DNA of 64,000 nt from assembly GCA_946625225.1 (NCBI GenBank), contig CAMOTA010000003.1, positions 205 through 64,204 on the forward strand, written 5' to 3'. Positions 13,017-47,485 of this stretch are shown piece by piece (position 1 is the stretch's first letter; each line of letters begins with the position of its first letter). The translations under genes and the position numbers were made by a program. The stretch is from an uncultured Eggerthellaceae bacterium (lineage in GTDB: Bacteria > Actinomycetota > Coriobacteriia > Coriobacteriales > Eggerthellaceae). The notes below the pieces were generated by a model that saw only the letters and a list, made by a program, of their open reading frames with translations, ran no database searches and was not told the origin of the DNA.

Positions 13017-13018
13017 CC

Positions 13019-18561: not shown

Positions 18562-18588
18562 CGTTACGCCAAATAAAGCTGCGTACTA

Positions 18589-30424: not shown

Positions 30425-33400
30425 TTATTCAGGTGCCGTTGTTTCAGGATTCAGGGTATTGATAGTGTTCGAATCGTCCGTCATATATCCCACACCGCTT
30501 TCGCTGACTGTAAGCGTGAACCAGTTACCATCGTCGCCCGACGATACCTGCCGATACCCGGAAGGTATCGTTGTCTCACGCAGATAATACGTTCCATAGG
30601 GCAGCATGCCGATGAAATATACACCGCTGGCGCCGCTGGTGAAGGACGTTGTCGTAGCGCCGCTGATGTCCGTGCCGGACACCAGCGTATGGTCGTGGCG
30701 CAGGATTTCGAACACCGCACCCTCGAGAGGAGCAGAGGCATCGCCCACCTTCTTCAGGATGGCCTTCCTCTCTACGGTGCTGATGTTCATGATGCCGTAC
30801 TTGGCAATGTCGGGCGTGGCAACAGCCTTGCCGGTTGATGGGTCGATCAGGAAGACAGCCGCGTCCTTCTTATCGCCGCCCGTTCCCGTCTGCGCGGCAA
30901 CCTGTTCCTGCGTAATGCCCTCGAGCACGCCGCTTCCTGCTCCCTGCAATGCGGCATCGCCCACAAGAACAATGTACACGTTGCTGACAGGATTGCCGGA
31001 CTCGTCCTTCGTCAGGGCGTTGACATAACCATCCGGCGTGTCCGTCTCCTTCATGTAATAGACTCCGGCAGGTATCTGCTCGAAAAGAACGATGCCCTCA
31101 TCCAGCGATGCGCCGGTTCTGTCCTTATATGTCGCCGTGCCGTCCGCAGATACAGCAGCCGCGTCCTCGCCTCCCTGCTTAAGAGCCGCGGTGCAGGCCG
31201 AATCTGCGTAGAGCGTAAAGGTCGCGCCAGGCATCGCCGTTCCAAAGCCGTCGACTTTCTTGAAGCTCACATCGAATCCGCCGGCCCAGTAGATAAACGA
31301 GGCGTTTTCCCCGGAGCTGCCGGATAGGTAATTGTCTTCTCCGCAGTTTGTCAGGCTGTCCGGCCGCGCATTCCGGAACGCAGCATATGTGGCGCCATTA
31401 ACAGCGCCACTTGCGATGGTGGCAAAGGGCTTCATCATTGCATAATGGTTTTCCGTTTCAGCCCAGACCCAGATCGACCCAGCGTCAACACTCAGATTTC
31501 CCGTCAGGACAACGGATGCCGGTGCGTCCTGCGACTCGGCAATGTAGATGTCCTGGCGCGCCTTCGAATAGGCCTTCCCACCATTTTTCTGCGCAACGAG
31601 ATCGCCGCTCTTGAAGTTGCCGTTTGTCGTGGTGATGTTTCCGCTGACATCGCGTCCCGTTCCGCCGAAGCTGGGGTTGCCAGAGAGATTGAGCGTGCTG
31701 CCCTCTGCCAGATAGACGCCCGCTCCATCGCCGTCGGACTCATTGCGGTTAATCGTGCCGCCGGTTATGGTGGCTAAACCACCCTCCTCCAGGTAGATGC
31801 CCGCACCATTGCCATCCGATTCATTCCGGGCAACGACACCGCCGGTCATGGTGACCGTGCCGCCATTGGCGACATGCACCGCGCCGCCATTATGGCTCTC
31901 GCCGATTTTGGAGTTTTGCAACGTTGCGCCGTCCTGGATGGTCAGCTTGCCGCCGCTCGGGACGTTGGCAATACCGCCGCTTGCGCTGACCGTATACGAA
32001 CCCTTCGCACCGTCGAGGATGATCGACGCAAACGTCAGGTCGCCGGTCACGTTGAACATGGAACCGTCCGCAAAGGCGCGGCGTATGGTAGACGTTGTTC
32101 CAGCGTCCTGCTTGGGGAAGAGCGCATCGCCGGCGGAGGCCGTGGTCAGCGTGACCTTGCTTTCGCTAGCTTCAACAGCCTCTTCCAGGCTGTAGTCTCC
32201 GATCAGCATTTGAATCTGCACGCCGTTGCTGACAGCATAACTTGAAGGATTGCTGCCATTCGATGTGTACAATGTCCCTTCCAGCGCATTAAATGCCCCG
32301 TTGTCGCCTATCAGTTCCGTATAGACTGCAGGCGCGTAGTAATTCGGCTGGCGAGTGCTGCTACCGCCATCCGGTCCCTCGCCTTCCTTGTTTGTTGCCT
32401 TGTTCCAGTCGTACTTGCGATACAGAAGATTCCCGCTCATGTCCGTGATCTTGCAGACTGGCATAAGGTTCGTAAACGTCAGCGACGAGGTGTACGGGTC
32501 CACGTCCGTCCGGCTCTTGTTTTCGCCAATGGTGCTGGTATAGGTATTCGCCTTGACGACGGTGTACTCAACGCCATCGAAGGTCAGCTTTTCAGTTGCC
32601 GAGCTATAGCCGTTCATCGGCATCGCCGCATACCGCTTGGCCTGGTCGACAGTCAAGTACTCGATTACCTCGTACGTCAGCCCCTCCGACAGGTTGACGC
32701 CGCTGATGGACTCCCCAGCCTTCAGCGAAAAGACGGCTGTGGTGGTCTCCGACCCGTTGCTGTCGAAATGCATCTCGCCGTATTCGCCATCGTCGCTGTC
32801 GATCTGCGCTGCATTCAACTGTCCTGCAACCGTTGCATCCCCTCGTATATTCACCTTGAACAGGAACGCTTCATTTCCATCTGCCGATGTTGAATTACCG
32901 GACACAACCTCCTTCCTCACTTCAAGGGAGAAGATCTGAATCCAGTAAATCGTATTGGGGTCCGGATTCTCGATAATGCCGCCCTTCAGCCCGTTTCGGT
33001 CGTTGACGAAGCTGTAGAAGGTGGAAGTGTTGTCATTCGTGGCGAAAGTGCCGAAGTTGTCTCTTTCTCCGCCATAGTCCTTGTACGGATTCGTATCCTC
33101 GTCCCCGGGTACATATACGCCGATATACGACCCTGCATACAAGCCGCCGTTGTTGGTGTTGATGACTGCTTTGGAGCTCTGATCCAGCTCCACGTTGCAG
33201 GCAACAGATTGCCCATCTTTTGTTGCCGTGTTGCCAGAGATATTTACCTTGCCGGAGAAGTAGAGGCGGGAATTCGCACCCTCGATGGCGATACCGCCGC
33301 CGCGTGTGGTGGCGCTGTTGTTGATGATGGAACCGCCGGTCATGGTGAACGGAATGCCCTTGTTGTTCACCACGTACACGCCGCCGCCTTGGGCTGCTGT

Positions 33401-36400
33401 GCAACCGCTGATGGTGCCGCCCGCCATGGTAAAGCCGCCGGAATTGTTTGTGCCAGGGTTATAGACCGCACCGCCTTTGCCGCTCGCCGTGCATTGATAG
33501 ATGCTTCCGGCTGTGAAGGTCAGCGGCTTTGCGCTTTTATTGTATATTGCCCCACCGTCTTTACCACTGCAGTTGCGAATCACACCACCTTGAATACTGA
33601 AGGTGCCTTTTGCGATGTTCACTCCACCGCCATCGCCAGTCGTATTACCGTTTTGCAGCATGGCGTTCTCGCCCAGAATTACGGTGCAATTGTCGTGCTC
33701 AACCCACATGCAGCGCGTGCTACCATTGGGCGTGATTCCATTTTCTGCACCACCGTCGATGACGATGCCCTCCAGAATCAGGTTGCCTTTGGCGTTGAGC
33801 AGGGTTCTTCCGCTGTCAACATCAGAACCGCGGGTCACCGTTGCACGGGTACCGGCGCCTACATAGGGATAACCATCGGTATCGCCCTTGCCCGCCGTGG
33901 TGAATGTAATTGTCCTGCTTTCCACATACACGACATTCATATCTGCAGGAGTCACATAATTTTCGAGCATCTTTATAGCATAGCTATCGCCTACATACAG
34001 CACCCCATCCGCCGTGTACAGTTCAGGCGTATTTGTTGTGCATAACATATTGAACGCTGCAGCGGAGCTATAGCCGTTAAAAACGTTATTGACTTTACCG
34101 GTTCCGAGCCGGTCGAAAATCGCCGGTGACGACCCCTTGGTCGTGCCATCTTCCAGTGTTTGCGTTTTAAGATAGAGCAAATTGCCATTGCCATCGGTAA
34201 TCTTGGCAATCGGCGGGCCAGCCCAGATGATCTTTGTTCCGCTCTCGTCCGTGCGGTCGATGATGCCGTGAAGGGTGCTCGCATCGGCTTTAAACACCGC
34301 GAAATCGTCTGCAAAACCGTGTGGGCTGGCAAATTGCGAGGTGCCGAATTGCGTACCGACCTTGTTTGCGTTTACAACGCGAATTTCGCTTTCGTTGCTC
34401 AGATTGCAGTAGACGTAGACACTGGCCGCATTGTTTTGCGTTCCGTTATCCCACAGCCTCAAATCGGAGAGCGTGCTGTTAGCCGTGGTATTGCCGCGGA
34501 CGATGACAGTATCGGTGAAGCCCTCTTCTGCATCCGAAGGACCGACGAACAGTGTGCGGTTGTTGTTCAGATACACGCCTGCACAGTCCGCAGCCGTATT
34601 CGTGGTCAGACGGTTGCCGGTGATTTCTGTTCCGTTGCGCAAAGTGAGCTGGGATCGGGTGAAGACGCCGCCTCCGCGATAATTGGAGGTGTTGCCAGTG
34701 ACCTTGGAACTATCGATTATCAATGCGTAATCAGCGCCATCCCAAGGCGCGTTGATTCCGCCGCCGTTCCTTACAGCCCTATTGTTGCTGATGGTGGAGT
34801 CGGTTACGGTTAGCGTCTGGACATACGCAAAGATACCGCCGCCACCTCTCGGAGGATTGTTGTCGGTGCTGGCATCGTTTGAGACACAGCCGCTGATGGT
34901 TGAGCCTGTAACCGTCAGCGCAGAGCTTGCAGCATTTCTATTCTGATAGATGCCGCCGCCACTCCATTTCGCCGTACAGTTGGAAATCGTTGTTGGAACG
35001 GCATCATCTCCCGAACCGCTTGCTTGAATCGCAACCGTTTTGGCGCGGGTGTAAATGCCGCCGCCGTTAGCGTCGGAGGTATTGTTATCCAATGTCGAGC
35101 CCGTAACGGTCAGGTTCATGGCGTTGCGCGCATTATCGCTATTAATCTCGAACAGGATACCGCCGCCGTTGCTCTTTGCGGTGTTGTTAGATACGGTCGA
35201 ATCCGTGACCGTCAGCGTCCTGACCCCAGCAAAAATACCGCCGCCGCCTTGATCCGTTCCCGTGTTTGTGTTGTTCGCTGTATTGCCCTTGATATCTGCA
35301 TTGGCAATGACCAGGCTGGAGCCGTCCACATTCCTCCTCTGATACACGCCGCCGCCGTTGGTCTTTGCCGTATTGTCCGAAATGGAGGATCGCGCCATGT
35401 TGCCGCTACTGTCCGCCTTCGTCTCGCTGGCTCCAACGGTGACCGTCTTGGCTAGCGTATAGACTCCGCCGCCGGCACCGCCCGAGGTGTTGCCGTCGAT
35501 GGTGCTGCCTTTGACCGTCAAAACCTGTATGTTGCGGTTGGCTTCATTGTTTGCGTCGAACCACACGCCGCCGCCCGCACCGGATGCGATGTTTCTCGAA
35601 ATGTCGGAATCTGCAATATCGAGTGACGTATAGCTGTAAGCATACACGCCGCCGCCAGCATTGGTGCACGTGTTGTCGGTAATCGTGGACCCGTCAATTG
35701 CTGCCGTGCGCGCGTTCGTCCAGACACCACCGCCGCTTTTGCTGCTATTCTTCGTCTGGTTGGCGCTGATGGTGGCATTGGTAATGGCTATGGAACTTCC
35801 ATCGACATCTCTGCCGTGGTACACGCCGCCGCCCTCATTGCTAGAGGTGCAGTTGCTGATTGTGGTGTGGACGGTTTGCTCCCTGCCTTCATCATCGGTG
35901 TAGGTATAATCGCCGATGATGAGCTCCTTGGCATTCGATCCGACACCGCCGCCCTGTCCGGTCGCCGTGCATCTGTCGAAGGTGCAGCCATAGACTTCAC
36001 CTCTCAGCGCGTTGGTATTGGACATGGCAATGCCGCCGCCGAAGTTGCCGGAAGTGTTGGTAAAGGTGCAGTTGTTTACCGTGGTGTAGACAGCCGTGCT
36101 TCGGAAACCGCCCCCGTTCTGCGCGTATGCCTGACAGTCGTTGAAGCTGCAATTTGTCAGGGTGATTGTGCAGTTCGTGCCTGTGCCGGGGTTTGCGTTG
36201 TTTGTCATGAAGGCGTTGAACCCGCCGCCATTGCGCTCTGTGGCAACACAGTGCTCGAATGTGCAATCGGAAACGTCGATGTACTTGGAGTCAAGCTCCA
36301 TGCCGCCAGCCGCCTTAGCTGAGCAGTTGGTGAAGCTGCAGCCGGAAATCGTCGTCCAGGAATTATAGTTTCCATCGATACGGTGGAACAACGCACCCGC

Positions 36401-39400: not shown

Positions 39401-42400
39401 GCCGCCGTTGCCGGATTCTGCCTTGTTCCCGGTTATTCTAGACGTACCGGAAACCTTGACCGTGCCCCCGGCGAGCCAAATCGCGCCGCCGTCGCCGCTC
39501 GTTGCAGTGTTGCTTTGAATCGTGCCCGTTCCGCTCAGGGTGATGGCGCTGTTTCCGGAATGGTAAATCGCGCCGCCCTCAGGCGCGCTGCAGTTCTGGA
39601 TTATGCCGCCGATGGCGATATCTCCGGCAGTGGCGTTAATCGCACCACCACCAACAGCGTTCTGGATCATCGCGCCAGAGCCAATCGTCAAGTCACCCGC
39701 GCTCCGAATTACCGGAGAGGTTGCTTCTACAGAACTGCCTTCCAAGGTCACGTTCGTTATCGTCAGCGTACCGTTGTTGGTGAACAGCGGCACATCCGCC
39801 AACTCGGCCGTCCTGGTAATAACGGCCACATGCCCCACACTCTCCGCGGTCGTCAGCGTGATATTGCACCCGTTCGGAATTTCCACGGTATCCGCTGCAG
39901 GCATGAGATAGTCAGTCAGCATCTCGGCAGTTGCCGTTTTCGAGGCGATTTCATTCTCTACGTAATCCACCATACTCCGCAGGGTATAGAAATAATGATC
40001 GTCTATCCTGCAGATCGCCTTCGGGCTGTTGGTCAGGTCTACTTTCTTTTCTGAATCCAACGTGAAAGAAACCGAGGTGTTGTCCGTTACCGACATCGGG
40101 CTGGTCGAGCTTTCAACGATGGATCCGGTCCTTGCCGCAAGCGTGTAGTTCTCGTTACCGCTTTCGGCAATGGTGTATTCGCCCTTGCCGAGTCCCTTGA
40201 TCCTGATTTTCGTGCCATCCGTCACGGTGAATGTAATCGTGCCCGGCTCGGTCCCGTTGGCGGGAGTGGCAGTCACGGTCGCGCTCTCCGCACCGTCCGC
40301 AGCATAGCTTTCCTTTGTTATTGCCGTAGAGCTGATGGTCGCGGTAAAGCTTGATTCGCTGAAAATCGCATTCTCTCCGCTCTCGGATGTGTCCACCGTT
40401 TTGCTGATCTGGAAATCGTAGCCGCGCTCGGTATAGATGGCATAGATGGTCGGCGTCCCGGACAGGGGAAGGTCTTTCCACGTGGCCCCGTCAAAGCTGT
40501 ACTGCAGGGTATTGTTCTGCACGCTAAGCTGCATGGTCAGGGCATCGCTCGTGTCCAGCTCGGAGCTGTTCTCTGCGCCTGCGTTGCCCGCGCCGATCTT
40601 CACATAGCTCAGATACCGCTCGGACAGGCCATCGTCAAGCACGGGAGGCATCCGGAAGTTGTTCCCGTTCTGGCTAATGGCAAAGCCGGAGAGCGGAATC
40701 TCGAAGTTCTCGTTCTGCGCAACGGTTTTTCCATTCATGGTAAGCAAGGCGTGGCTATAGGTCACGGAATTGCTTTCCTCGATGCTTCCCGTCGTTGAAT
40801 TCTCGAGGCAGCCCGTAATATCCGTCAGCGTACCGTCAGCCGTTTCCTTAACATAGCGGATTCTGGGCATGGGGTAGTAGATGTAGTAAAGCTGGCTATC
40901 CCCCAATTCGGATATCGTATTCCCATCGCCGTCTTTCAATACCAGCTCGTAGACATCGCCTTCGACCTGGGCATAGGCAATCGACACAACCTCCGTGCTC
41001 CCCACCGTAATGGCGCTGCCTTCCGAGCCGGTACCGGACATGACCGCACCGAAGGCGTAGGTATTCGTATCGCCCCTGAACACGCCCTCGTGTTCAACCT
41101 GATGCGCTTCGTCCCCTTCTCCTTCAGTCGTGGAATATGCGACTGCCGGTAGTTTTGCAAGGAGCGTTTCGCTTGTTCCCAACGCCAGGTCAAACTTGTA
41201 ATTCGCCTCTGTTGCGTTTCTGAGCGCGGTATCCCTTTGGATAATCCCGCCGTTGGTGCCGTCATTCTCCACCATCGCAACATGGACTTCCACGGGAAGG
41301 GCCTTGTGGGTGTTGGTAAACGCCACGTTCTGCGTGCCGCCGGAGCCGGTCGCGGTATACGTGTACCGATAGGGCTCGGACTCCTGTTCTGCTCCATTTA
41401 TCGCTGTCGTGAAGGCATCGTTGGCCGTCTGCGTGATCCTGGCGGTTTGGGCGGTCACCGTGGTCGTGGTGGTTACTTCACGCGTATTGCCGCCATTGTC
41501 CTCGCCCTCTGTCCGGCTGATCGTTTCGCTGTAGAACAGAATCGACGAATTCGCCTCGCCGTTTTTGAGGATATAGGGCTGGTTGCCTTCCGCAGCAGTG
41601 TCGAAAATCGTTTCGGGCGTTCCGGTCGTCGTGGTCTCTGTCGGATCGCCGCTGTCTTCCCATTCCCCGCTGTCGTTCTTCGTCTGCGCCTGCACGGACA
41701 CCGTAGTCGTAGTAGCCTCCGTCACCAGCAGATCGAAGGTAAACGGCGTGTCCATGACGGCGCCGGTTCCTACGGTCTTCTCGTCGAACATGACCACTGT
41801 GGGCTGCTGGCTGTAATAGACCACATAGAGCTGTGGCGCGTAACCGCAACTTGTCCAGACCGCGTTGTCCCCGGCCTCTGTAGCGTATTCAAATCCACGC
41901 CAGGCGTTCCGGACTCGCAGCGTTGGAACCGGGTCGCTCGGACCGACGGCGTTCGTGATCAGGCTCAGATTCGAGGCATTCATCTGGGTCTCGCCGCCCG
42001 CGTCCACGCTGCCAATGGCAAAGGCATAGTTCGTGAACCCGGACGCAAGGTCCAGAGGTGCAGTGAGTTGGCTCGACATGTTGTATTCGCCGAGAAGGGC
42101 ATCCGTCGCCGTCGGAGCTTCAGACGTTGTCGCGTTCTCCAGCACGCCGCTCGAGGCCATGCTCTTGTAGCCGATGTTCAGCGCCTTTTTCTGATAATAG
42201 ACGAAGTACAGCTCTTCGCCCTCGTCGAGGACGCTGAAGGTCGACTCTCCCGCATATTGCACCTGTATCTTCTTGTTCTCGTATTTGATGGCCGTGACCG
42301 CATTGTCCTCGAAAATGGAATCCAGATCGCTCGCCACGGCGACGAAAGCAAACTCGTAGTCGCCGGAAGGCGTCGTCACATGGCTTGCTCCGTTCAGCGC

Positions 42401-45400
42401 CGTCTCCGTAGCGGATACCGTCACGTCCGTAACGTTCCATCCGTCCGCACCTGTCTTATCTTCCAAATCAGCCGCAGATGCATCCACGGCATGGACGGGC
42501 ACGGTGTTTGCCTCGCCCCAATAGGCGTACAAATCCAGCGCACCGGTTACCTGCTGCGAAAAGTCATATTCCGTATAGGAATACGGATTCGCTTCGTCCC
42601 CCGTGGCAGTTCGTGTTGCCCAGTAACGGAACAGGCGCCCATCCTCTCCCGCATAGACGGGGACCTTGTCCGGTTCTGAAATGGTGGTTCCGAGATTTGC
42701 GGTCTGGGAATAGGCATCGCCTGTTCTCGTATAAACTGCCGTGTCCCACGCTTCGTCACCCCAATTGGCATCCGCGCTGTTCAGGTTATACGTCACCTGA
42801 GCACCCCAGACGGCGTAGAGGGTTGTGGCTTCCGAAACGCCGTATATTACATCGCCTTCATTGGAATAGTATGTCGCGGAATCATCGCAGACGGCTTTAT
42901 CACTCCACCCAAGGAACGTGGCATTGGAACCCGACGGCGCGGAAAAGCCCGTGCCGTCGCTCAGCTTGAACTTGCTATTGTTGACCAGTCCGGAAACGGT
43001 GGCAGTTCCCGCAGTCGCATCGACCGTGCCGGATGCCGCATTCCATTCATCGGTAGCACTATCCGGAGCCTTGCCGAAGTTCACATCATTTTCAGCAACC
43101 GTGCCACCATTGGCGTTATAGACGATAGCGGCCGTTCCGACTTTCGCGTAAACAGCATCCAGATAGACGACGTCCTTGCCGCTGACACGCTTCGCATCGT
43201 CTGCATGCAAGGTGAAGGTTTGACCCGGCGCATAGACCGTAGCACTGTCGTCGCCCCGTACCTGCCAGCCGACAAAGGCGTATCCTGCCGGAGCAATGGC
43301 AGACTGCGCTAGGGCAACCTCTGCATAGTCGGCATAGCCTTCGGGCAGCAGAGCGCTCTTCGTCCCGTCTTCTAGCGTTCCATCGCCTGCGTCGTAGGCG
43401 AGGTAATAGGCGCCCTCCTTCTTCCAATGGAGACGAAGCTTGGTATTGTGGTCGGTATGCTGGCTGAAATCGTAGGGCTCTGCCGCCTCTCCGATCTCGT
43501 TTCCGTCTGCATCCAGGTACACCTCGTACCATCCCGCATAGGTATAGACGCCCGGGGCATATTCAAAGGTGGTATCCTCCGTGGCTAGAGCTGGATTCTG
43601 CGTATAATAGGTATGGCGATCCGCCCAGCCATTGCTTCCTCCCTTGCCGTCTCCGGAATGATCGACAAAGTACCAGGTACCTGAACTTGACTCCACATAG
43701 TCCCGGGTAACATGGGTATACTCGCCGATCGGCTCGCCTTCAAAGCTGGACCAAAACCAGGTCGCACCGGTTCCAGCGCCATTTTCTTCAGCGTACAGAG
43801 CGCCGTAATTCGGATCGATGGTTACCATATACCAGCCGGTTTCCCATCCGGCGTATACGGTGAGGTCATGGTCCGGCATTTTGCTGAGATTCGCGGGGAT
43901 CGTGCAAGCCTGGTCTAGATACCAGTTGGAAAACACATATCCGCTCCGGCCGGAGGTCGGTTCTTCGGGGATTTTATCCGCGATAGATGCATCATAGGAG
44001 ATGTCCGGGTAATTCACCGGAAGGCTCTCGCTCGTTTTTCCTGCTTCCGTAACAGAATCTACGAACGTCAGCGTATAGGACCCGCTGGGGACATAGCCGC
44101 TGTTCTTGTCGTAATAGACATTCAGCACCAAACCGCCGTCCGCGGTGATGCTTTTTGCATCATCGCAGCGAGAATAACTGTACCCCTCGTAAGACCTCTG
44201 CGTATACTCGGCCGGAACAGACGCCGACGCTCCGATTGTGCCGGTAAGGATTGCGCTTTCGGCGTAGGAGTAGGTCTTGTTTTCATCCTCGAGGCCATCT
44301 GCGTCGGACGGGTTTTGCCTCCAGACGACAACCTGGTAATCTGCCGTCGTTGCTGCCGTCCAATATGCGTATAGCGTAGTGTCCGCTCGTAGATAGAGCT
44401 TTCCTGCGCTGATATACGCGCCTGCATCATCCGCGCTGCTTACCAGGCTGCCATCCGCGTTGGTAATCTGGGCACCATAGTTCACGGTTTCGACCGTGCT
44501 GCTTCCTTCTGTCGTGGTCGCCAGCGTTCCCGTGTACCAGCCGCCAAAGGTAAAGCCATCCATGGCGGTAGTCGGAAGCGGAACGGGAATTGCGTCACCG
44601 GCGAAATAGTCTGCCGGAGGCACATAATCCGCTCCCTTACCCGACTGCGCCGCATAATAGGACAGCCGGTGGACTTCCCTGAAAATCGGGTAGAGATGCT
44701 TCTCTCCGGAGACCGTAATACAGCCTTCCGCATCGGCAAAAATGGCCGCGACATCGTTTCCTTCATCGTCCTTTGCCGCGCCAGGGGTAGTGATCGGCGT
44801 TTCAGACCATCCGAAGAAGGCCATCTTTGCACCGCCGCTGCTGGTATATGTTGTGCTGAGGTCGCTGATGTTTACCGTAGCGGAAGTGGTGGCGGACTCT
44901 CCTTCCCCAGCCGTCACAAGCTCTGCCCTGCGCGTATAGGCCACCGGGAAAGTCTTCGAATCAGAGTCATATTGGTCATGGAAAATGACCGTCGCATAGC
45001 TTTTATAGACAGCGTACAGATCGACTGCGCTGTTTTCCGTGATCGTTATGCTATCGAAGTTATAGGGTTCATCATCGAGCGTTAACGAGCCGCCAATCGT
45101 GCTTCCTTTATACCAACCGGCAAACACCTCTGTGTCCGTAGATGCCAACTGCGGCACGATAAGTTCCTCGCCGCTGGTAATTGTCTGCTTGAAGACTGTA
45201 CGCCCCTGAGAATCCGTAAAGGAATACTCTTTATATGTGCCGGGCGCGTCCTCGTTCGGAATCCAGAAGGTATACGTGCTCTGGGGCGTAACGGTCTGGC
45301 CGTCGCTGCCAATCAAAACATACACCGAGAATCCGTCGGTCTCGAAGTCAACGGATTCTCCGCGTACGGTTGCATCCATGACCCGGGCATCTTCTCCGGC

Positions 45401-47485
45401 TCCATCGGGAATATGAACCACGTCTACATTCGCATAATTATTCAGGTCGTCCTTCAGCAGCTCGATGCTTACCGCAACGTTTGCATTGGGCTGGTATTCC
45501 TGGTCGGTGGCGGGGTCGATCAGGGAAATGTCGAAAGCCTTGGCCATCTGCACGCTTTCGGCAGTCGCGCCCAACGCGGCAGCGCTTTGGGCTACGTAGG
45601 CGTCGTAACCTTCTGCGTCCTCGCGTATCTCGGACACGACGAGCTGCGCGCCATCGGGGATGCCGGCTGTGGCGTCGAAGGTTACGCTTATGCGGTATTC
45701 GTTGCCATCGGAAGCCGTCAGCGTCTGGTCCAGCGTGTGCACGGCCAGCTGCCCCGCGGTCATGCCCGACCAGGCAGCGCGGTAGTCAGCAAGCGCCGAC
45801 GAGCTTTTCGCGCCATCCGACTCGCCTTGTTCGACGCGTCCGCCCAGGGCATACGGATCCCACACCAATGCAATGCCCTCGCCCGACTTCAGCGTTGCGG
45901 GGGCCTTCGTGCCCTGCGAGGCGAACACGCGGTCGCCGAACGCGCCGTCGTTCAGTCGATAGCCTTCCAAGGCGCCCGTCTCTTCCAGGCCGGGGTCGTC
46001 GAAGGGGCTGGCGCTCAGCCACAGCGCAGGTTCGTAGCCGGGGTCGGCTTCGCGCACCTTGGCGAACTCGTCCTTCAGCTCCGACTGCGCCTGAAACGCC
46101 TCGACGATCCAGGCATCGCCTTCGAGCTCTTCGGCAAAGGCGTCGGTTACGTGCACCACGGAGCGCCACGAACCCAACACCGTGATGTCCGCACCACGGC
46201 TCTCCCACGAGATGAGCGGCGTGGCGATGCCTGCCAGCGCGAATTCGCTGAACGTGTCGGTGTAGAAGACCAGCTTCGCGCCGCTTTTCTTGGTGGATTG
46301 GTTGTCGATTCCCAGCGGCTCGTATATGCGCTCGTGCGTGTCGGGGTCGTTCCCTTCGTAGCGCGCGACCTCCAGCGCATCGGTTACCGTCGCGTCGATG
46401 GTGGAGGTTTCGATGGTCACTTCGACCTCGGAAGCGGGCACCACCGACTTGCCATTGCTCTGGATGTCGATTTCCAGGAAGCTGGTATGGAACAGGTATT
46501 CATCGTCGCGCACTTCGAAATCGTCTGCCAACGCCTTCGTGCGCGCATTCATCTCGCGCGCGGTCAGGAAATGCTCGGTGTCGAAGGGGCGGTTCTTGAA
46601 CTTCTGGCTTTTGGGATCGTAGCCTTCAGGCGTGCGGATGGCCTGCACGACCGAAAGCTCGGCGTCGTCGGGAATGCCCGCCTGCTCGTCGAAGGCAACG
46701 GAAACGACGATGCTTTTGCCTTCGGCGGTTTTGATGGTCTTCTCGATGGTCGTTTTGTCGTCGGATTGCGCGCGCGCTTCCCGGTCGGCCGAACCCGCCG
46801 GAGCGGACGCGGCGCTGCGCGCCGAGCCAGCCGACGCGGCAGACGAACTGCTCGCCCCGGCGGCGCCGTGCGATGCATCGGCTTCGGCTTCTGCGTCTTC
46901 GCCAGCAGCGTTTGCGTGTTTTGCTTCGGCCGTGCCGTCGGCTTCGCTTGCCGGCTCCTGCGCATAGGCCAGCCCGTCGGCAAGCGCCGATGGGCTCTGC
47001 CGCTCGGAAACTGCATTGTCGGTGGTGCGAGCGTTGCCCTCCTGCGCGACGGCAACAGGAGCTTGGCTCGTGGGGGCGTTGGCGTCCAGCGCGGCGCGGG
47101 TGGCAATGCCGCCGCCATTGGGCAGCGCCGACGTGGCCTGAGGCGCCGCGGCAGCGCCCGTCCGTGCGTCCCATTCGTTGTTTGCAGTGCTGACCTGCTG
47201 CAACACGGAATTGGCGAAGATGCCCGTTCCCGTTGCAAGCGGTACGATGCCCATGGCGAACAGCAAGCCCGTAAGCAGCACGCCCACGACGACCTGAACC
47301 ACCGCGAATCCGCCATAGGTACGCAAGTTTTCCCAGGTGCGCTGCAGCTTTTCTTCTTTTGGTGCGTGTATCATGCTCATCACAACGCTTTCCACCGCCT
47401 GGCTGTCTCGCCCGCTGAACGCGCGTGTGTCGGCAACCGAGACGGTGCAACTTGGTCCCGTCTTCTCACAGACCTCTTCAACCAT
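30425..47485 (-). CDS. Giant (up to 5,686 aa) multi-module surface adhesin with pilin-like N-terminal helix; first gene of the pilus operon
   Basis: Uninterrupted 17,061-nt ORF. M36 (47380) is a better-placed start with GGTGGAAAG upstream. The N-terminus is 'KLQRTWENLRTYGG|FAVVQVVVGVLLTGLLFAMGIVPL' (prepilin-like, Gln instead of Glu at +5). An Ala/Ser-rich linker follows (~46750-47200). Next are two 'ISVxFDxxAGIPDxAxLVV' domains and ~8-10 'GYxFxGW' Listeria-Bacteroides (Flg_new-type) repeats (~42450-45250). There are four beta-helix modules rich in 'GGAI / GGGV(Y/W)' PMP-like repeats (~38000-40025, 34340-37075, 33100-34215, 31440-32465). The protein ends with two SpaA/Cna-B-like domains (~30428-31280). 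It has no C-terminal LPXTG or hydrophobic tail. Sub-domain coordinates are approximate. Confidence 0.85.
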   Translation of the reverse strand: MVEEVCEKTGPSCTVSVADTRAFSGRDSQAVESVVMSMIHAPKEEKLQRTWENLRTYGGFAVVQVVVGVLLTGLLFAMGIVPLATGTGIFANSVLQQVSTANNEWDARTGAAAAPQATSALPNGGGIATRAALDANAPTSQAPVAVAQEGNARTTDNAVSERQSPSALADGLAYAQEPASEADGTAEAKHANAAGEDAEAEADASHGAAGASSSSAASAGSARSAASAPAGSADREARAQSDDKTTIEKTIKTAEGKSIVVSVAFDEQAGIPDDAELSVVQAIRTPEGYDPKSQKFKNRPFDTEHFLTAREMNARTKALADDFEVRDDEYLFHTSFLEIDIQSNGKSVVPASEVEVTIETSTIDATVTDALEVARYEGNDPDTHERIYEPLGIDNQSTKKSGAKLVFYTDTFSEFALAGIATPLISWESRGADITVLGSWRSVVHVTDAFAEELEGDAWIVEAFQAQSELKDEFAKVREADPGYEPALWLSASPFDDPGLEETGALEGYRLNDGAFGDRVFASQGTKAPATLKSGEGIALVWDPYALGGRVEQGESDGAKSSSALADYRAAWSGMTAGQLAVHTLDQTLTASDGNEYRISVTFDATAGIPDGAQLVVSEIREDAEGYDAYVAQSAAALGATAESVQMAKAFDISLIDPATDQEYQPNANVAVSIELLKDDLNNYANVDVVHIPDGAGEDARVMDATVRGESVDFETDGFSVYVLIGSDGQTVTPQSTYTFWIPNEDAPGTYKEYSFTDSQGRTVFKQTITSGEELIVPQLASTDTEVFAGWYKGSTIGGSLTLDDEPYNFDSITITENSAVDLYAVYKSYATVIFHDQYDSDSKTFPVAYTRRAELVTAGEGESATTSATVNISDLSTTYTSSGGAKMAFFGWSETPITTPGAAKDDEGNDVAAIFADAEGCITVSGEKHLYPIFREVHRLSYYAAQSGKGADYVPPADYFAGDAIPVPLPTTAMDGFTFGGWYTGTLATTTEGSSTVETVNYGAQITNADGSLVSSADDAGAYISAGKLYLRADTTLYAYWTAATTADYQVVVWRQNPSDADGLEDENKTYSYAESAILTGTIGASASVPAEYTQRSYEGYSYSRCDDAKSITADGGLVLNVYYDKNSGYVPSGSYTLTFVDSVTEAGKTSESLPVNYPDISYDASIADKIPEEPTSGRSGYVFSNWYLDQACTIPANLSKMPDHDLTVYAGWETGWYMVTIDPNYGALYAEENGAGTGATWFWSSFEGEPIGEYTHVTRDYVESSSGTWYFVDHSGDGKGGSNGWADRHTYYTQNPALATEDTTFEYAPGVYTYAGWYEVYLDADGNEIGEAAEPYDFSQHTDHNTKLRLHWKKEGAYYLAYDAGDGTLEDGTKSALLPEGYADYAEVALAQSAIAPAGYAFVGWQVRGDDSATVYAPGQTFTLHADDAKRVSGKDVVYLDAVYAKVGTAAIVYNANGGTVAENDVNFGKAPDSATDEWNAASGTVDATAGTATVSGLVNNSKFKLSDGTGFSAPSGSNATFLGWSDKAVCDDSATYYSNEGDVIYGVSEATTLYAVWGAQVTYNLNSADANWGDEAWDTAVYTRTGDAYSQTANLGTTISEPDKVPVYAGEDGRLFRYWATRTATGDEANPYSYTEYDFSQQVTGALDLYAYWGEANTVPVHAVDASAADLEDKTGADGWNVTDVTVSATETALNGASHVTTPSGDYEFAFVAVASDLDSIFEDNAVTAIKYENKKIQVQYAGESTFSVLDEGEELYFVYYQKKALNIGYKSMASSGVLENATTSEAPTATDALLGEYNMSSQLTAPLDLASGFTNYAFAIGSVDAGGETQMNASNLSLITNAVGPSDPVPTLRVRNAWRGFEYATEAGDNAVWTSCGYAPQLYVVYYSQQPTVVMFDEKTVGTGAVMDTPFTFDLLVTEATTTTVSVQAQTKNDSGEWEDSGDPTETTTTGTPETIFDTAAEGNQPYILKNGEANSSILFYSETISRTEGEDNGGNTREVTTTTTVTAQTARITQTANDAFTTAINGAEQESEPYRYTYTATGSGGTQNVAFTNTHKALPVEVHVAMVENDGTNGGIIQRDTALRNATEANYKFDLALGTSETLLAKLPAVAYSTTEGEGDEAHQVEHEGVFRGDTNTYAFGAVMSGTGSEGSAITVGSTEVVSIAYAQVEGDVYELVLKDGDGNTISELGDSQLYYIYYPMPRIRYVKETADGTLTDITGCLENSTTGSIEESNSVTYSHALLTMNGKTVAQNENFEIPLSGFAISQNGNNFRMPPVLDDGLSERYLSYVKIGAGNAGAENSSELDTSDALTMQLSVQNNTLQYSFDGATWKDLPLSGTPTIYAIYTERGYDFQISKTVDTSESGENAIFSESSFTATISSTAITKESYAADGAESATVTATPANGTEPGTITFTVTDGTKIRIKGLGKGEYTIAESGNENYTLAARTGSIVESSTSPMSVTDNTSVSFTLDSEKKVDLTNSPKAICRIDDHYFYTLRSMVDYVENEIASKTATAEMLTDYLMPAADTVEIPNGCNITLTTAESVGHVAVITRTAELADVPLFTNNGTLTITNVTLEGSSVEATSPVIRSAGDLTIGSGAMIQNAVGGGAINATAGDIAIGGIIQNCSAPEGGAIYHSGNSAITLSGTGTIQSNTATSGDGGAIWLAGGTVKVSGTSRITGNKAESGNGGAVRCSGTVVIEVDQGGSITGNTAMEGGAIYAETGTISISETAEGVKPAVTGNTATTGNGGAIRVDTGSVTVSGGSVSNNNAASGNGGAVYSNAARVAISDTAEIRSNTAKEGGAVYAASGAVEVSGGTVDNNTASTGSGGAIHAGTGTVTVSGGSLSGNTAAAGSGGAIHAGAGTVTVSGGSLSGNTANADGGAINAIGGTVTVAAHAEGNSESEGQIIAPIIAGNTATTGNGGAICAGTGAVSITGTTLAGNSAGANGGAVYANTGAVTATNSTFGGTAEDAGNIAGTSGGAIYAGSGNVAVSGGSMTGNTATAGDGGALYVGSGAATVSGYTESGATTYTQLTNNSAASGNGGAVFLNSGSLALTSVTATGNNAINGAAVFANTGRVNVSAGSYTGNTATDGGAVGVGGENTRLYFTGDAQITGNKLGTADDAPQSNVYLDQDSDAIINIDTLGGNADIGIYVPDAVVPTRSVPGARFAVYTSNSNAAKVKNDRYSSLTVQSDTAAKKLYWGNGVRIEVMYLASYASGLPNGTSAGRGTTVADVGMFYPTINGEGEVALSELASDVYTKSSAVRNGLSSHKNATFGAAFYYDAPDYSYDISKLVWNTTAEKWQVEMRNGQTADLPGRIYIIYSEPGYVSIENNTEEQLRISDLRMTVNGTEVSVLNSAESTGYGMVFAKNGAIRTALLPIAADDLTLAARQSVNLLIPGGQNMAYKLDGSFETTTGGSVRLRRGAEASLIEETVIVASDGSFDQLTGTTLTGAGTYNIIFGDNKIICKVVDADGVEHPYGKISDAIADIVATTGANPPYALATAKKAAIQMVTDYLLPASDVVNIPKGYDITITTAAKEVGLYPYIGEADRAILSRDSENTNSMITSEAGDADSKLALRNLIIDGKSVRGNSAGGAVSISYFAVEVDTVDFVNVYAQNGGALYIDDHFGSNSNTARANSVLTVMGCTFSNCNSTMQSGSRIGGGAIHFYGDQLTVTDCTFENCNGGDQAGALFHRIDGNYNSWTTISGCSFTNCSAKAAGGMELDSKYIDVSDCTFEHCVATERNGGGFNAFMTNNANPGTGTNCTITLTNCSFNDCQAYAQNGGGFRSTAVYTTVNNCTFTNTSGNFGGGIAMSNTNALRGEVYGCTFDRCTATGQGGGVGSNAKELIIGDYTYTDDEGREQTVHTTISNCTSSNEGGGVYHGRDVDGSSIAITNATISANQTKNSSKSGGGVWTNARTAAIDGSTITDNTCTNAGGGVYAYSYTSLDIADSDISRNIASGAGGGVWFDANNEANRNIQVLTVKGSTIDGNTSGGAGGGVYTLAKTVTVGASETKADSSGNMARSSISDNTAKTNGGGVYQRRNVDGSSLVIANADIKGNTANNTNTGTDQGGGGIFAGVRTLTVTDSTVSNNTAKSNGGGILFEINSDNARNAMNLTVTGSTLDNNTSDANGGGIYTRAKTVAIQASGSGDDAVPTTISNCTAKWSGGGIYQNRNAASSALTVTGSTISGCVSNDASTDNNPPRGGGGIFAYVQTLTVTDSTISNNRAVRNGGGINAPWDGADYALIIDSSKVTGNTSNYRGGGVFTRSQLTLRNGTEITGNRLTTNTAADCAGVYLNNNRTLFVGPSDAEEGFTDTVIVRGNTTANSTLSDLRLWDNGTQNNAASVYVYCNLSNESEIRVVNANKVGTQFGTSQFASPHGFADDFAVFKADASTLHGIIDRTDESGTKIIWAGPPIAKITDGNGNLLYLKTQTLEDGTTKGSSPAIFDRLGTGKVNNVFNGYSSAAAFNMLCTTNTPELYTADGVLYVGDSYAIKMLENYVTPADMNVVYVESRTITFTTAGKGDTDGYPYVGAGTRATVTRGSDVDSGRTLLNAKGNLILEGIVIDGGAENGITPNGSTRCMWVEHDNCTVILGENAMLQNGNTTGDGGGVNIAKGTFSIQGGVIRNCSGKDGGAIYNKSAKPLTFTAGSIYQCTASGKGGAVYNPGTNNSGGFTMAGGTISGCTAAQGGGVYVVNNKGIPFTMTGGSIINNSATTRGGGIAIEGANSRLYFSGKVNISGNTATKDGQSVACNVELDQSSKAVINTNNGGLYAGSYIGVYVPGDEDTNPYKDYGGERDNFGTFATNDNTSTFYSFVNDRNGLKGGIIENPDPNTIYWIQIFSLEVRKEVVSGNSTSADGNEAFLFKVNIRGDATVAGQLNAAQIDSDDGEYGEMHFDSNGSETTTAVFSLKAGESISGVNLSEGLTYEVIEYLTVDQAKRYAAMPMNGYSSATEKLTFDGVEYTVVKANTYTSTIGENKSRTDVDPYTSSLTFTNLMPVCKITDMSGNLLYRKYDWNKATNKEGEGPDGGSSTRQPNYYAPAVYTELIGDNGAFNALEGTLYTSNGSNPSSYAVSNGVQIQMLIGDYSLEEAVEASESKVTLTTASAGDALFPKQDAGTTSTIRRAFADGSMFNVTGDLTFASIILDGAKGSYTVSASGGIANVPSGGKLTIQDGATLQNSKIGESHNGGAVHVANGGTVTMTGGVVARNESDGNGAGIYLEEGGLATITGGTINRNESDGDGAGVYLAEGSTLNLSGNPSFGGTGRDVSGNITTTNGNFKSGDLVAQKNGGKAYSKARQDIYIAESQDAPASVVLTGNLSVDAGSIWVWAETENHYAMMKPFATIASGAVNGATYAAFRNARPDSLTNCGEDNYLSGSSGENASFIYWAGGFDVSFKKVDGFGTAMPGATFTLYADSACTAALKQGGEDAAAVSADGTATYKDRTGASLDEGIVLFEQIPAGVYYMKETDTPDGYVNALTKDESGNPVSNVYIVLVGDAALQGAGSGVLEGITQEQVAAQTGTGGDKKDAAVFLIDPSTGKAVATPDIAKYGIMNISTVERKAILKKVGDASAPLEGAVFEILRHDHTLVSGTDISGATTTSFTSGASGVYFIGMLPYGTYYLRETTIPSGYRQVSSGDDGNWFTLTVSESGVGYMTDDSNTINTLNPETTAPE
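38841..39002. repeat. 81-bp tandem duplication inside the giant ORF (27-aa unit 'GSGGAIHAGxGTVTVSGGSLSGNTAxA')
   Basis: Units 38841-38921 and 38922-39002 are ~93% identical. They sit within a longer degenerate repeat tract. Confidence 0.85.

What the first reader, a model, noticed from the sequence alone, without database searches (positions are those of the whole stretch)
30425..47485. Intact 17-kb ORF: a giant adhesin with a pilin-like N-terminal helix instead of a sortase signal, built from four similarly organised beta-helix modules
The sequence shows 17,061 nt without a stop codon. The C-terminus ends in '...NTLNPETTAPE', with no LPXTG motif and no hydrophobic tail, although the last ~280 aa look like SpaA/Cna-B domains typical of sortase substrates. 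The only membrane or fibre anchor candidate is the N-terminal 'RTYGG|FAVVQVVVGVLLTGLLFAMGIVPL'. The body is strikingly modular. Four PMP-like 'GGAI/GGGVY' beta-helix blocks each open with a related unit: '(I/V)C(K/R)(I/V)xD...' followed by '(M/L)xDYLxPA..V.IP.G..ITLTTA'. Examples are ICRIDDHYFY.../MLTDYLMPAADTVEIPNGCNITLTTA, ICKVVDADGVEHPY.../MVTDYLLPASDVVNIPKGYDITITTA, IAKITDGNGNLLY... and VCKITDMSGNLLY.... Each block closes with an 'RLYF(T/S)G...(I/V)Y(V/I)...' cap. A tract of ~8-10 Flg_new-type repeats precedes the blocks. Covalent or pilin-type N-terminal attachment of a >500 kDa adhesin would be unusual.
Basis: partly seen in the sequence, partly recalled or inferred. Interest (0 to 1): 0.8.

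Follow-up and report, generated by a model that had tools for sequence, protein, structure and literature searches.

The report
Giant adhesin of type IV pilus
This intact 17-kb gene of a gut Eggerthellaceae bacterium encodes a ~590-kDa adhesin that belongs to a type IV pilus operon, and in relatives the same adhesin is fused to a true pilin, so it is most likely carried by a retractable pilus rather than fixed to the cell wall.

Summary
Window 30425-47485 (minus strand) is one stop-free ORF of 5,686 codons. It has an N-terminal leader-Gly-hydrophobic helix, about 8 Flg_new repeats, four related beta-helix modules and two C-terminal SpaA domains. There is no LPXTG motif and no C-terminal hydrophobic tail.

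The ORF heads a type IV pilus (T4P) operon: giant, K-like (303 aa), I-like (114 aa) and J-like (198 aa) minor pilins, an 857-aa GLUG modular pilin ("H"), then PilB, PilT, PilC. Two pilA genes lie nearby.

- Ten of eleven homologues looked up in Coriobacteriia and Clostridia sit in the same minor-pilin operons.
- In P0041 (4,232 aa) and P0146 (7,092 aa) the H pilin, with a canonical prepilin signal, is fused in frame to this adhesin.

The protein is therefore very probably a pilus-presented adhesin.

How it attaches is unresolved. No pilin profile detects it, and operon-equivalent giants elsewhere have plain Sec signals, so PilY1-like docking is about equally likely.

Verdict: a new variant of a known kind (modular pilins and tip adhesins).

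The parts
30425..47485 (-). Giant adhesin ORF: 5,686 codons, with the probable start at 47380 (M36), giving 5,651 aa and 587 kDa.
   Evidence: Pfam domains.
47309..47380 (-). Polar, basic leader MSMIHAPKEEKLQRTWENLRTYGG (aa 36-59), ending in Gly-Gly.
   Evidence: read directly from the sequence.
47234..47308 (-). A 25-residue hydrophobic helix, FAVVQVVVGVLLTGLLFAMGIVPLA (aa 60-84). It is either a candidate prepilin-like alpha1N stem (F1, Q5, G14, P23) or a Sec signal or membrane anchor.
   Evidence: AlphaFold2 single-sequence model: helix, kink at M19-P23, second helix to residue ~50, then disorder. No pilin HMM hit.
46751..47158 (-). Low-complexity Ala/Ser/Gly/Glu/Asp-rich linker (aa ~110-245).
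   Evidence: pLDDT below 50.
45266..46750 (-). Two N-proximal 'AGIP' domains (aa ~246-560 and ~575-740). In the fusion proteins this kind of domain directly follows the H pilin.
42416..45238 (-). Tract of about 8 Flg_new (Listeria-Bacteroides repeat) units.
37070..40015 (-). Beta-helix module 1 (aa 2491-3472; ICRIDD opening unit, PMP-type GGAI repeats, RLYFTG cap), including the domains that follow it.
34211..37069 (-). Beta-helix module 2 (aa 3473-4425; ICKVVD opening unit).
32459..34210 (-). Beta-helix module 3 (aa 4426-5009; IAKITD opening unit, RLYFSG cap, DUF7601 Ig-like domain).
   Evidence: AlphaFold2 mean pLDDT 86. Foldseek matches to beta-helix proteins and to the Cpa-type Ig-like domain.
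31286..32458 (-). Beta-helix module 4 (aa 5010-5400; VCKITD opening unit).
30428..31285 (-). Two SpaA/CnaB-type domains and a free C-terminal tail, ...WFTLTVSESGVGYMTDDSNTINTLNPETTAPE. No sorting signal.
29463..30374 (-). K-like minor pilin (303 aa as ORF, 287 aa as called in GCA_003452695.1). Cleavage motif QQG|AALPL: Pro4, no Glu5.
   Evidence: (weak GspK hit, E 0.0025).
29119..29463 (-). I-like minor pilin (114 aa; TRG|ETITE).
28520..29116 (-). J-like minor pilin (198 aa; QRG|FSLTE).
25950..28523 (-). 'H' modular pilin with GLUG motifs (857 aa; RRG|FTMME; C-terminal GDWPxxET motif). Its ATG overlaps the J stop codon (ATGA). This is the fusion partner of the giant adhesin in other genomes.
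24028..25716 (-). PilB extension ATPase with an MshEN c-di-GMP-binding N-terminus.
22960..24012 (-). PilT retraction ATPase.
21698..22930 (-). PilC platform protein (T2SSF).
18589..19020 (-). Major pilin pilA, copy 1 (KG|FTLME).
10216..10665 (+). Major pilin pilA, copy 2, in inverted orientation.

Best explanation
The ORF encodes the adhesive 'effector' of a retractile type IV pilus (T4P).

Shown:
- The gene is the first cistron of a cluster that runs giant, K, I, J, H minor pilins, PilB, PilT, PilC.
- Relatives of this adhesin sit in the same minor-pilin operons across Coriobacteriia and Clostridia.
- In several genomes the H pilin and the adhesin are a single polypeptide with a canonical prepilin signal.

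Inferred:
- The window protein is the 'split' form of such a giant modular pilin.
- It is exported by its N-terminal signal and joins the H-I-J-K priming complex in the membrane.
- PilB-driven polymerisation of PilA carries it out on the pilus tip.
- From the tip, its ~5,400-residue rod of Flg_new repeats, Ig-like domains and beta-helix modules binds a surface. PilT-driven retraction then pulls on that bond.

Attachment step. My slight preference is PilY1-like non-covalent docking. The N-terminal segment would serve only for export or transient membrane retention. The adhesin would be held by its N-proximal 'AGIP' domains on the C-terminal end of H, where it is fused in other species, and/or by a C-terminal strand given to K. 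The confidence below is for this whole statement including the docking step. For 'pilus-presented adhesin' alone I hold about 0.85.
For: Operon in the window:
- Giant stop at 30425 and K start at 30374, with no terminator-like site between them.
- K, I, J and H carry class III-type N-termini.
- PilB, PilT and PilC follow.

Conserved linkage. T4P contexts were found for:
- the window's own contig
- P0008, P0061, P0041, P0146
- P0094, P0048
- the giants that follow H homologues P0158 and P0178
- P0084 and P0002
- upstream of pilB in L002, L003, L009 and L079

Rosetta-stone fusions. P0041 and P0146 match the window H pilin end to end (34-37% identity, E 1e-116 and 1e-125). They then match the giant from aa ~238 (P0041) or ~586 (P0146) through the beta-helix modules. 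P0146 continues to the giant's C-terminal SpaA end. P0041 is seen on 5 contigs.

For docking rather than a pilin stem:
- Operon-equivalent giants in L091, L093/L094, L095 and L096 have short Sec-type signals.
- No pilin profile detects the window N-terminus.
- Precedent: PilY1 and MshQ are large non-pilin proteins encoded next to the IJK pilins and held by beta-strand complementation with PilK (PMC12918778).
Against: - No experiment or complex model was possible, so neither a docking surface on H nor a C-terminal strand has been shown.
- C-terminal tails are variable, and even the closest orthologue (L002) has a different tail.
- The window N-terminus has a 25-residue hydrophobic stretch and no clean AXA site. 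That is unlike the 12-16-residue Sec h-regions of the Sec-type family members and like pilin stems.
- PilD, PilM, PilN and PilO are not in the 64-kb window, so it is unverified that the machine is complete in this genome.
- One family member (P0007) shows no T4P gene on its short contig.
Confidence: 0.45

Rival explanations
1. One reading: a headless giant pilin. The prepilin peptidase cuts after Gly59 (GG|FAVVQ). The ~50-residue N-terminal helix (hydrophobic residues 1-25, kink at G20-P23, second helix to ~50) inserts into the filament core at or near the apex together with H, I, J and K. Because it has Gln5 rather than Glu5, it can only sit at the top. The linker and the adhesin rod then project from the tip. 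This would be a ~585-kDa pilin-like subunit.
For: - Gly-Phe is the same cleavage dipeptide as in PilA, H and J of this operon.
- The only polar residue in the hydrophobic stretch is Gln, exactly at +5. G14 and P23 mimic G14/P22 of type IVa pilins (sequence).
- The hydrophobic length is 25. Pilins in this operon have 25-30 and Sec-type family members 12-16.
- AlphaFold2 predicts helix, kink, helix to residue ~50, then disorder.
- Operon-equivalent giants carry recognisable class III N-termini. P0094 and L009:19373 match a K-type profile at 25 and 33 bits, against 5.4 bits or less for 140 controls. P0048 reads G|TAAAE with Glu5.
- Degenerate, tool-invisible prepilin signals are documented (S. 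sanguinis PilA, PMC9934059). Pfam also misses the K pilin here and barely sees the I pilin.
Against: - No Glu5 and no HMM support.
- The custom K-type and extended profiles rank it at the bottom.
- No globular pilin head follows the helix.
- Plausible SPase I sites exist (ATG|T, IFA|N).
- The nearest relatives, P0008 and P0061, have AQA/AEA sites after their helices.
- Other family members clearly use Sec signals, so a pilin stem is not required for function.
- The AlphaFold2 model is single-sequence with pLDDT 67-84.
Confidence: 0.38
2. An ordinary cell-surface adhesin. The N-terminal helix would be a signal anchor or Sec signal, and the protein would stay on the membrane or wall. It would share the operon with pilus genes only for co-regulation of adhesion and motility.
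For: - The N-terminus is compatible with a type II membrane anchor.
- Related proteins in the wider family end in LPXTG-type sorting signals and are presumably wall-anchored (P0095, P0096, P0100).
- P0007 shows no T4P neighbours.
Against: - In-frame fusions to a canonical pilin and placement among the minor pilins in 10 of 11 contexts argue for a physical link, not only a regulatory one.
- Sec-type members would have no anchor at all after cleavage.
Confidence: 0.12
3. A non-functional or artefactual ORF: an assembly chimera of repeats, or a decaying gene.
For: The source is probably a metagenome-assembled genome, and repeats are hard to assemble. The pilus locus downstream looks rearranged, with insertions, an IS110 element and an inverted pilA duplication.
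Against: - 17 kb without a stop (P about 10^-89).
- The modules are only 29-47% identical, so they are not collapsible repeats.
- Its C-terminal third (1,934 aa) is called on an independent public contig of GCA_003452695.1 that carries an identical J pilin.
- A 56%-identical orthologue exists over aa 2895-5484, and a co-linear 36.6%-identical homologue over the full length.
Confidence: 0.03

Closest known systems
Modular type IV pilins (S. sanguinis PilB with a vWA module and PilC with a lectin module; Raynaud et al. 2021, PMC8179133; PMC9934059)
   Same: An adhesive module is presented by a minor pilin at the tip of a monoderm T4P. The window's H protein (857 aa, GLUG) and the fused homologues P0041 and P0146 fit the definition: a canonical class III signal plus non-pilin domains.
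   Different: Size and architecture. The 2021 survey's most extreme case was 860 aa, whereas the fused relatives here are 3,200-7,100 aa. The window protein is a separate polypeptide without a detectable pilin module.
PilC/PilY1 and MshQ tip adhesins of diderm T4P (PMC12918778)
   Same: A large non-pilin adhesin encoded next to the H/I/J/K minor pilins and presented at the tip. The gene lies directly beside K.
   Different: No PilY1 beta-propeller domain. The organism is a monoderm, where PilY1 is said to be absent (PMC9934059). The protein is five times larger. A C-terminal complementing strand has not been demonstrated.
GspK/PilX/PilK-type apical minor pilins and Tad CpaL
   Same: Glu5-less N-terminal helix and an apical position. 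CpaL is a minor-pilin-like protein with a large middle region. Some operon-equivalent giants (P0094, L009:19373) carry K-type N-termini.
   Different: The window N-terminus does not match the K-type profile. A separate K pilin is already encoded in the operon.
Sortase-anchored SpaA/Cna-B adhesins and pilins of Gram-positive bacteria
   Same: C-terminal SpaA (prealbumin-like) and DUF7601 Ig-like domains. Foldseek matches the Ig-like part to Cpa and T-antigen.
   Different: No LPXTG, no hydrophobic tail and no sortase gene in the window.
Chlamydial Pmp and autotransporter-type beta-helix adhesins
   Same: GGAI/FxxN-type repeats (PF02415 hit) that form a right-handed beta-helix.
   Different: No beta-barrel translocator. 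The organism is a monoderm. The modules are embedded in a multi-domain rod.

Membership tests
Type IV pilin / class III signal peptide protein (Pfam PF07963 N_methyl, TIGR02532) | Short polar, basic leader ending in Gly, directly followed by ~20 or more hydrophobic residues. | tested here: met
   MSMIHAPKEEKLQRTWENLRTYGG | FAVVQVVVGVLLTGLLFAMGIVPLA.
Type IV pilin / class III signal peptide protein (Pfam PF07963 N_methyl, TIGR02532) | Glu at position +5 of the mature protein. K-type apical pilins are exempt. | tested here: not met
   Gln at +5.
Type IV pilin / class III signal peptide protein (Pfam PF07963 N_methyl, TIGR02532) | Match to a prepilin N-terminal profile. | tested here: not met
   No hit to PF07963 or TIGR02532, even at E<=10 for Pfam and E<=1 for NCBIfam. 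The custom K-type HMM ranks it last. Caveat: the same profiles also miss the K pilin and score the I pilin at only 13 bits.
Type IV pilin / class III signal peptide protein (Pfam PF07963 N_methyl, TIGR02532) | Globular pilin head (alpha1C packed on a beta-sheet) after the N-terminal helix. | tested here: not met
   The helix to residue ~50 is followed by a ~135-aa low-complexity segment that is predicted to be disordered.
Type IV pilin / class III signal peptide protein (Pfam PF07963 N_methyl, TIGR02532) | Cleavage and N-methylation by the prepilin peptidase PilD. | not testable with these tools
   Needs biochemistry. No PilD gene in the window, although related operons carry one.
Type IV pilin / class III signal peptide protein (Pfam PF07963 N_methyl, TIGR02532) | Encoded together with the T4P assembly machinery. 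| tested here: met
Modular pilin (sensu Raynaud 2021: IPR012902 N-terminus plus non-pilin domains) | Pilin module and functional module in one polypeptide. | tested here: not met
   Not met for the window giant, which has no pilin module. Met for its neighbour H and for homologues P0041, P0146, P0006, P0085 and P0133.
PilC/PilY1 tip adhesin | C-terminal PilY1/PilC beta-propeller domain (IPR008707, Pfam Neisseria_PilC). | tested here: not met
   The Pfam scan of the whole protein in six pieces shows no such domain.
PilC/PilY1 tip adhesin | Gene adjacent to the I/J/K minor pilin genes. | tested here: met
   50 nt upstream of K. The same holds in relatives.
PilC/PilY1 tip adhesin | Extreme C-terminal beta-strand that complements PilK (PMC12918778). 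| not testable with these tools
   No multimer modelling is available. The tails are short and variable.
Sortase substrate (LPXTG surface protein) | C-terminal LPXTG, a hydrophobic segment and a basic tail. | tested here: not met
   None in any frame of the window.
Chlamydia Pmp / autotransporter | PMP repeats together with a C-terminal autotransporter beta-barrel in a diderm. | tested here: not met
   Repeats are present (PF02415) but there is no barrel domain. The host is a Coriobacteriia monoderm.

The most novel reading that the evidence does not exclude
The 587-kDa protein is itself a pilin-like subunit. PilD cuts at GG|F, and a headless ~50-residue alpha1 stem with Gln5 seats it at the apex of a retractile pilus. 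It would then be by far the largest filament subunit known. More broadly, gut Coriobacteriia and Clostridia would routinely mount 3,000-7,000-residue adhesins on type IV pili in three ways: by fusion to the H pilin, through a K-type stem, or by docking. This would be a monoderm counterpart of PilY1 that has not been described.
Probability: 0.38. Interest if true: 0.85.

Novelty: new variant of a known kind. Interest (0 to 1): 0.68.

Why it matters
Type IV pili are thought to gain functions through small modules grafted onto minor pilins, or in diderms through PilY1. PilY1-type effectors are described as absent from monoderms (PMC9934059).

Here a whole family of 3,000-7,000-residue adhesins is embedded in the minor-pilin operons of gut and rumen Coriobacteriia and Clostridia. 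Some members are true pilins of up to 7,092 aa. That is about eight times the largest modular pilin noted in the 2021 survey (PMC8179133).

If these proteins are displayed on pili, three questions follow:
- How does a >500-kDa rod cross the peptidoglycan on a filament tip?
- How does the tip bond withstand retraction forces?
- What do these abundant commensals bind?

The natural split, fused, K-stem and Sec variants offer a ready-made comparative system for testing how tip effectors are attached.

I found no paper describing this in the searched library. That library is not exhaustive.

Tried and rejected
Searches that led nowhere:
- The search for homologous proteins with giant aa 36-730 found nothing. 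The candidate list was probably saturated by the low-complexity linker.
- The same tool with aa 236-560 found nothing. The word index is too insensitive at ~30% identity.
- Two metagenome-contig scans for the N-terminal region found no relatives. An alignment of nine sequences was too divergent to be searched.
- PDB sequence search with module 3 gave nothing meaningful.
- Literature searches for giant pilins and for Coriobacteriia T4P adhesins found nothing specific.

Tests that did not support the pilin reading:
- Profile tests of the N-terminus with Pfam, NCBIfam, a custom K-type HMM and iteratively extended HMMs were all negative for the window protein.
- An iterative self-HMM count of Flg_new repeats drifted, so I replaced it with a motif count.

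Technical failure:
It ran after I removed them.

Readings considered and rejected:
- Sortase anchoring: no LPXTG motif.
- Autotransporter or Pmp: monoderm host, no barrel domain.
- Pseudogene or assembly artefact: intact ORF on independent contigs, with co-linear homologues.
- PilY1 family membership: no beta-propeller domain.
- A conserved extreme C-terminal strand as proof of PilK docking: the tails are variable, so this is left open.
Full report
**1. The observation**

Window 30425-47485 holds a single ORF on the minus strand, 5,686 codons long with no internal stop. At this composition (57.6% GC) the chance of that is about 10^-89. The GC content of codon positions 1/2/3 (0.54/0.50/0.68) shows a coding pattern.

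The first ATG is probably not the real start:
- A promoter-like -35/-10 pair ends 4 nt before the first ATG.
- M36 (47380) is preceded by GGTGGAAAG.

From M36 the product is 5,651 aa and 587 kDa, with pI 4.4.

Pfam finds Flg_new, Chlam_PMP repeats, DUF7601 and two C-terminal SpaA domains.

The four modules exist:
- The opening units are at aa 2491, 3473, 4426 and 5010.
- They are related at 29-35% identity, with E values of 1e-9 to 6e-10. The caps of modules 1 and 3 match at E 2e-14.
- The exact 'RLYF(T/S)G' cap is in two modules only, and 'DYLxPA' is in two only.

About eight 'F.GW' Flg_new-type units lie between aa 750 and 1690. There is no LPXTG-like signal and no C-terminal hydrophobic segment. 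No LPXTG protein is encoded anywhere in the window.

I modelled module 3 from an alignment of ten homologues (mean pLDDT 86, pTM 0.83). It folds as an N-terminal cap, a right-handed beta-helix and a C-terminal Ig-like domain. The best PDB matches are Rhombotarget A (E 5.5e-4), then, at non-significant E-values (0.05 and above), phage tailspikes and pectate lyases. The Ig-like part matches the pilus adhesin Cpa, also only at E about 0.2-0.4.

**2.

Directly downstream on the same strand lie the following genes:
- A 303-aa protein with 'RRAQQG|AALPLALLLFLICALL' (Pro4, no Glu5). It gives a weak GspK hit, E 0.0025.
- A 114-aa protein with 'TRG|ETITEVL', GspI-like.
- A 198-aa pilin with 'QRG|FSLTEML'.
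- An 857-aa pilin with 'RRG|FTMMELI' and GLUG motifs. Its ATG overlaps the preceding stop codon (ATGA).
- PilB with an MshEN c-di-GMP-binding N-terminus, then PilT and PilC.

Only 50 nt separate the giant's stop from the first of these genes, and no terminator-like site lies between them. By size, motif and order I call the minor pilins K, I, J and H, after the conserved HIJK tip complex (PMC9934059).

Two near-identical pilA genes (KG|FTLME) lie at 10216-10665 (+) and 18589-19020 (-). PilD, PilM, PilN and PilO are not in the window.

The organism is an Eggerthellaceae bacterium. An identical 198-aa pilin occurs in GCA_003452695.1, and one source names the matching H protein's organism as Eggerthellaceae.

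**3. Relatives**

A scan of one genome per species with PilB found the closest loci in Coriobacteriia metagenome-assembled genomes.
- L079 (PilB 84% identical) has a complete operon: giant (at least 2,573 aa), K, I, a pilin, PilB, PilT, PilC, PilA, PilD, PilM, PilN, PilO.
- L002 carries an orthologue that is 56% identical over giant aa 2895-5484. L003 and L009 carry 35-37%-identical homologues upstream of pilB.

A full HMMER search with giant aa 36-735 found 1,168 proteins, many of them 2,000-7,600 aa long. Most matched through the N-proximal 'TASDGNxYxIxVxYDxxAGIP' domain.

I looked up genomic contexts for eleven family members, counting the window's own contig as one. Ten lie in T4P minor-pilin operons:

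| Locus | Giant | Gene order |
|---|---|---|
| L001 | window's own contig | giant(C-terminal part)-K-I-J-H |
| L082 | P0008 | K-I-J-H-giant-PilB |
| L083 | P0061 | beside PilC/PilT |
| L084 | P0041 | K-I-J-giant pilin-PilB-PilT-PilC |
| L086 | P0146 | K-I-J-giant pilin-PilD-PilM-PilN-PilO |
| L087 | P0094 | K-I-J-H-giant-PilB-PilT-PilC-PilA |
| L089 | P0048 | K-I-J-H-giant |
| L091 | follows H homologue P0158 | K-I-J-H-giant |
| L093/L094 (Clostridia) | follows H homologue P0178 | K-I-J-H-giant |
| L095 | P0084 | giant-K-I-H-giant |
| L096 | P0002 | PilC-PilA-...-giant-H-K-I-J-PilD-PilM |

The exception, P0007, sits on a short contig with no pilus gene in view.

**4. Rosetta-stone fusions**

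P0041 (4,232 aa, seen on five contigs) and P0146 (7,092 aa) begin with canonical prepilin signals (SSG|FTMMEML and KKG|FSMAELL). They match the window H pilin end to end (34-37% identity, E 1e-116 and 1e-125). After the conserved H C-terminal motif 'GDWPxPET' they continue into sequence homologous to the window giant. The match starts at giant aa ~238 for P0041 and ~586 for P0146 and runs through the beta-helix modules. In P0146 it reaches the giant's terminal SpaA domains.

P0006, P0085 and P0133 are further H-adhesin fusions. In the split operons the giant gene starts 3-74 nt after H.

Fusion and fission of neighbouring genes is classical evidence that the two products work in one complex. 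This is my main reason to hold at about 0.85 that the window protein is displayed by the pilus.

**5. How is it attached?**

The N-terminal signals of operon-equivalent giants fall into distinct classes.

(a) Fused to the H pilin, as above.

(b) A leader ending in Gly, followed by 24-26 hydrophobic residues:
- window: GG|FAVVQ...
- P0048: KG|TAAAE..., with Glu5
- P0094 and the protein at L009:19373. Their N-termini match a profile built from eight K pilins at 25 and 33 bits, while 140 control N-termini score 5.4 bits or less.
- P0008 and P0061

(c) Ordinary Sec signals with 12-16-residue h-regions and AXA-type sites: L091, L093/L094, P0002 and P0084.

Evidence for a prepilin-like stem in the window protein:
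- Gly-Phe is the cleavage dipeptide used by PilA, H and J in the same operon.
- The only polar residue of the stretch is Gln, at +5.
- G14 and P23 resemble G14/P22 of type IVa pilins.
- There is no clean AXA site.
- AlphaFold2 (single sequence, pLDDT 67-84) predicts a helix, a kink at M19-P23, a second helix to residue ~50, then disorder. This looks like a headless alpha1.
- Degenerate prepilin signals that no tool detects are documented (S. sanguinis PilA; PMC9934059). Pfam N_methyl also misses the K pilin here and scores the I pilin at only 13 bits.

Evidence against:
- There is no Glu5 and no pilin head domain.
- No profile supports it. My K-type and extended profiles rank it last.
- P0008 and P0061 have AQA/AEA sites after their helices.
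- Class (c) shows that the family can function without a pilin stem.

The alternative is PilY1-like docking. In diderms, PilC/PilY1 is held at the tip by giving its extreme C-terminal strand to PilK. MshQ, a ~1,200-aa protein encoded next to the IJK genes, is predicted to do the same (PMC12918778).

The window gene lies immediately beside K. The fusions show that the adhesin's N-proximal domains lie next to the C-terminus of H. The C-terminal tails after the last SpaA strand are short and come in at least two types:
- 'GVGY...I(R/N)NTLNPE(S/T)TAP', shared by the window, P0003 and P0026.
- 'Y..R.AA(K/R)TAA', found in the closest orthologue L002 and in P0146.

I could not test either docking mode because multimer modelling is not available here.

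My estimates are: docking 0.45, pilin stem 0.38, not physically pilus-linked 0.12, artefact 0.03.

**6. Comparison with what is known**

The concept is known:
- modular pilins (PilB and PilC of S. sanguinis; PMC8179133, PMC9934059);
- non-pilin tip adhesins (PilY1, MshQ, CpaL; PMC12918778).

What differs here:
- The scale. The 2021 InterPro survey cited an 860-residue protein as its extreme case, against 3,200-7,100 aa for the fused pilins found here.
- The existence of split, H-fused, K-stem and Sec-exported versions of one adhesin family.
- Its occurrence in monoderms, where PilY1-type effectors are described as absent.

The window protein fails the sequence tests for pilin, modular pilin, PilY1, sortase substrate and Pmp/autotransporter (see the membership table). 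I therefore file it as a new variant of a known kind, not as a member of any of these families.

Four literature searches found no description of such giant pilus adhesins. The library does not cover most subscription journals.

**7. Verdict**

The pilin nature of the N-terminal helix remains open.
- Interest is 0.68.

Noticed in passing
window 10187-10419 and 18817-19049 (also 11476-11606 / 16388-16518 and 11268-11330 / 18443-18505): Two near-identical pilA genes lie in inverted orientation: 233-nt arms, 90% complementary, 8.4 kb apart. Nested inverted repeats lie between them. The flanked segment holds CobW, Macro-HTH, AAA_14/DUF4143 and VWA genes. This could be an invertible segment or a duplication that gives pilin variation.
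   Followed up: partly
window 6489-21669: In relatives, PilC is followed by PilA, PilD, PilM, PilN and PilO (L079, L086, L087). Here PilC is followed by an AAA-ATPase_like/PDDEXK_9 gene and unrelated genes, with an IS110 transposase at 6489-7793. A tblastn search found no PilD/M/N/O in the window. The pilus locus appears rearranged.
   Followed up: partly
window 24028-25716, 57-2294 and 51455-52807: PilB carries an MshEN c-di-GMP-binding N-terminus. A GGDEF-EAL protein with a 7TM sensor domain and an HD-GYP-type (HD_5) protein are encoded in the window. In L084 a GGDEF-EAL gene sits directly upstream of the K pilin. This suggests c-di-GMP control of the pilus.
   Followed up: no
window 25950-28523: The 857-aa 'H' pilin with GLUG motifs belongs to a large family of ~715-805-aa pilins in Clostridia and Coriobacteriia, which sources annotate as 'type II secretion system protein'. 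All family members I examined (the window H and the six others printed) end in a conserved 'HYGDWPxPE(T/L)' motif. In the fusions the adhesin is joined right at this motif.
   Followed up: partly
L040, L045, L050, L062, L071 (Ruminococcus/Clostridia loci from the PilB scan): ORFs of about 2,000 aa lie near pilB with K-type prepilin N-termini (NSKKG|FSLPMAMA..., Pro4, no Glu5). These look like giant K-type minor pilins, a second way of mounting large modules on pili.
   Followed up: no
L009 19373-21700: This protein (at least 776 aa, cut by the end of the locus) has a leader and helix (KLQSQQG|ASMSIAFLLFLACFV) that match K minor pilins at 33 bits. It lacks the K head domain and runs straight into the adhesin's 'AGIP' domain and a beta-helix opening unit. 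It is a K-stem version of the adhesin.
   Followed up: partly
P0041 residues ~765-775 (locus L084): At the junction between the H part and the adhesin part the sequence reads 'PINRQGFTLEST'. This resembles a prepilin cleavage motif without its hydrophobic stretch and may be a relic of a once-separate prepilin gene.
   Followed up: no
window 30428-30523; P0003, P0026, L002: The C-terminal tail '...GVGYMTDDSNTINTLNPETTAPE' is conserved in two otherwise distant giants (P0003, P0026). The closest orthologue (L002) instead carries a different, helix-like tail ('YGTRDAARTAAEEW') that P0027, P0093 and P0146 share. Tails seem to be exchangeable cassettes.
   Followed up: partly
family members P0095, P0096, P0100 and others: Some members of the same large family end in LPXTG-type or 'PTG'-type sorting signals with a hydrophobic tail. 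The family therefore spans sortase-anchored and pilus-operon-encoded forms.
   Followed up: no
window 8263-9222 and L090 1743-2702: A similar 319-aa protein (MxDNTVFDSVFKTM...) with no Pfam match lies near pilus or adhesin genes both in the window and next to the giant P0007.
   Followed up: no
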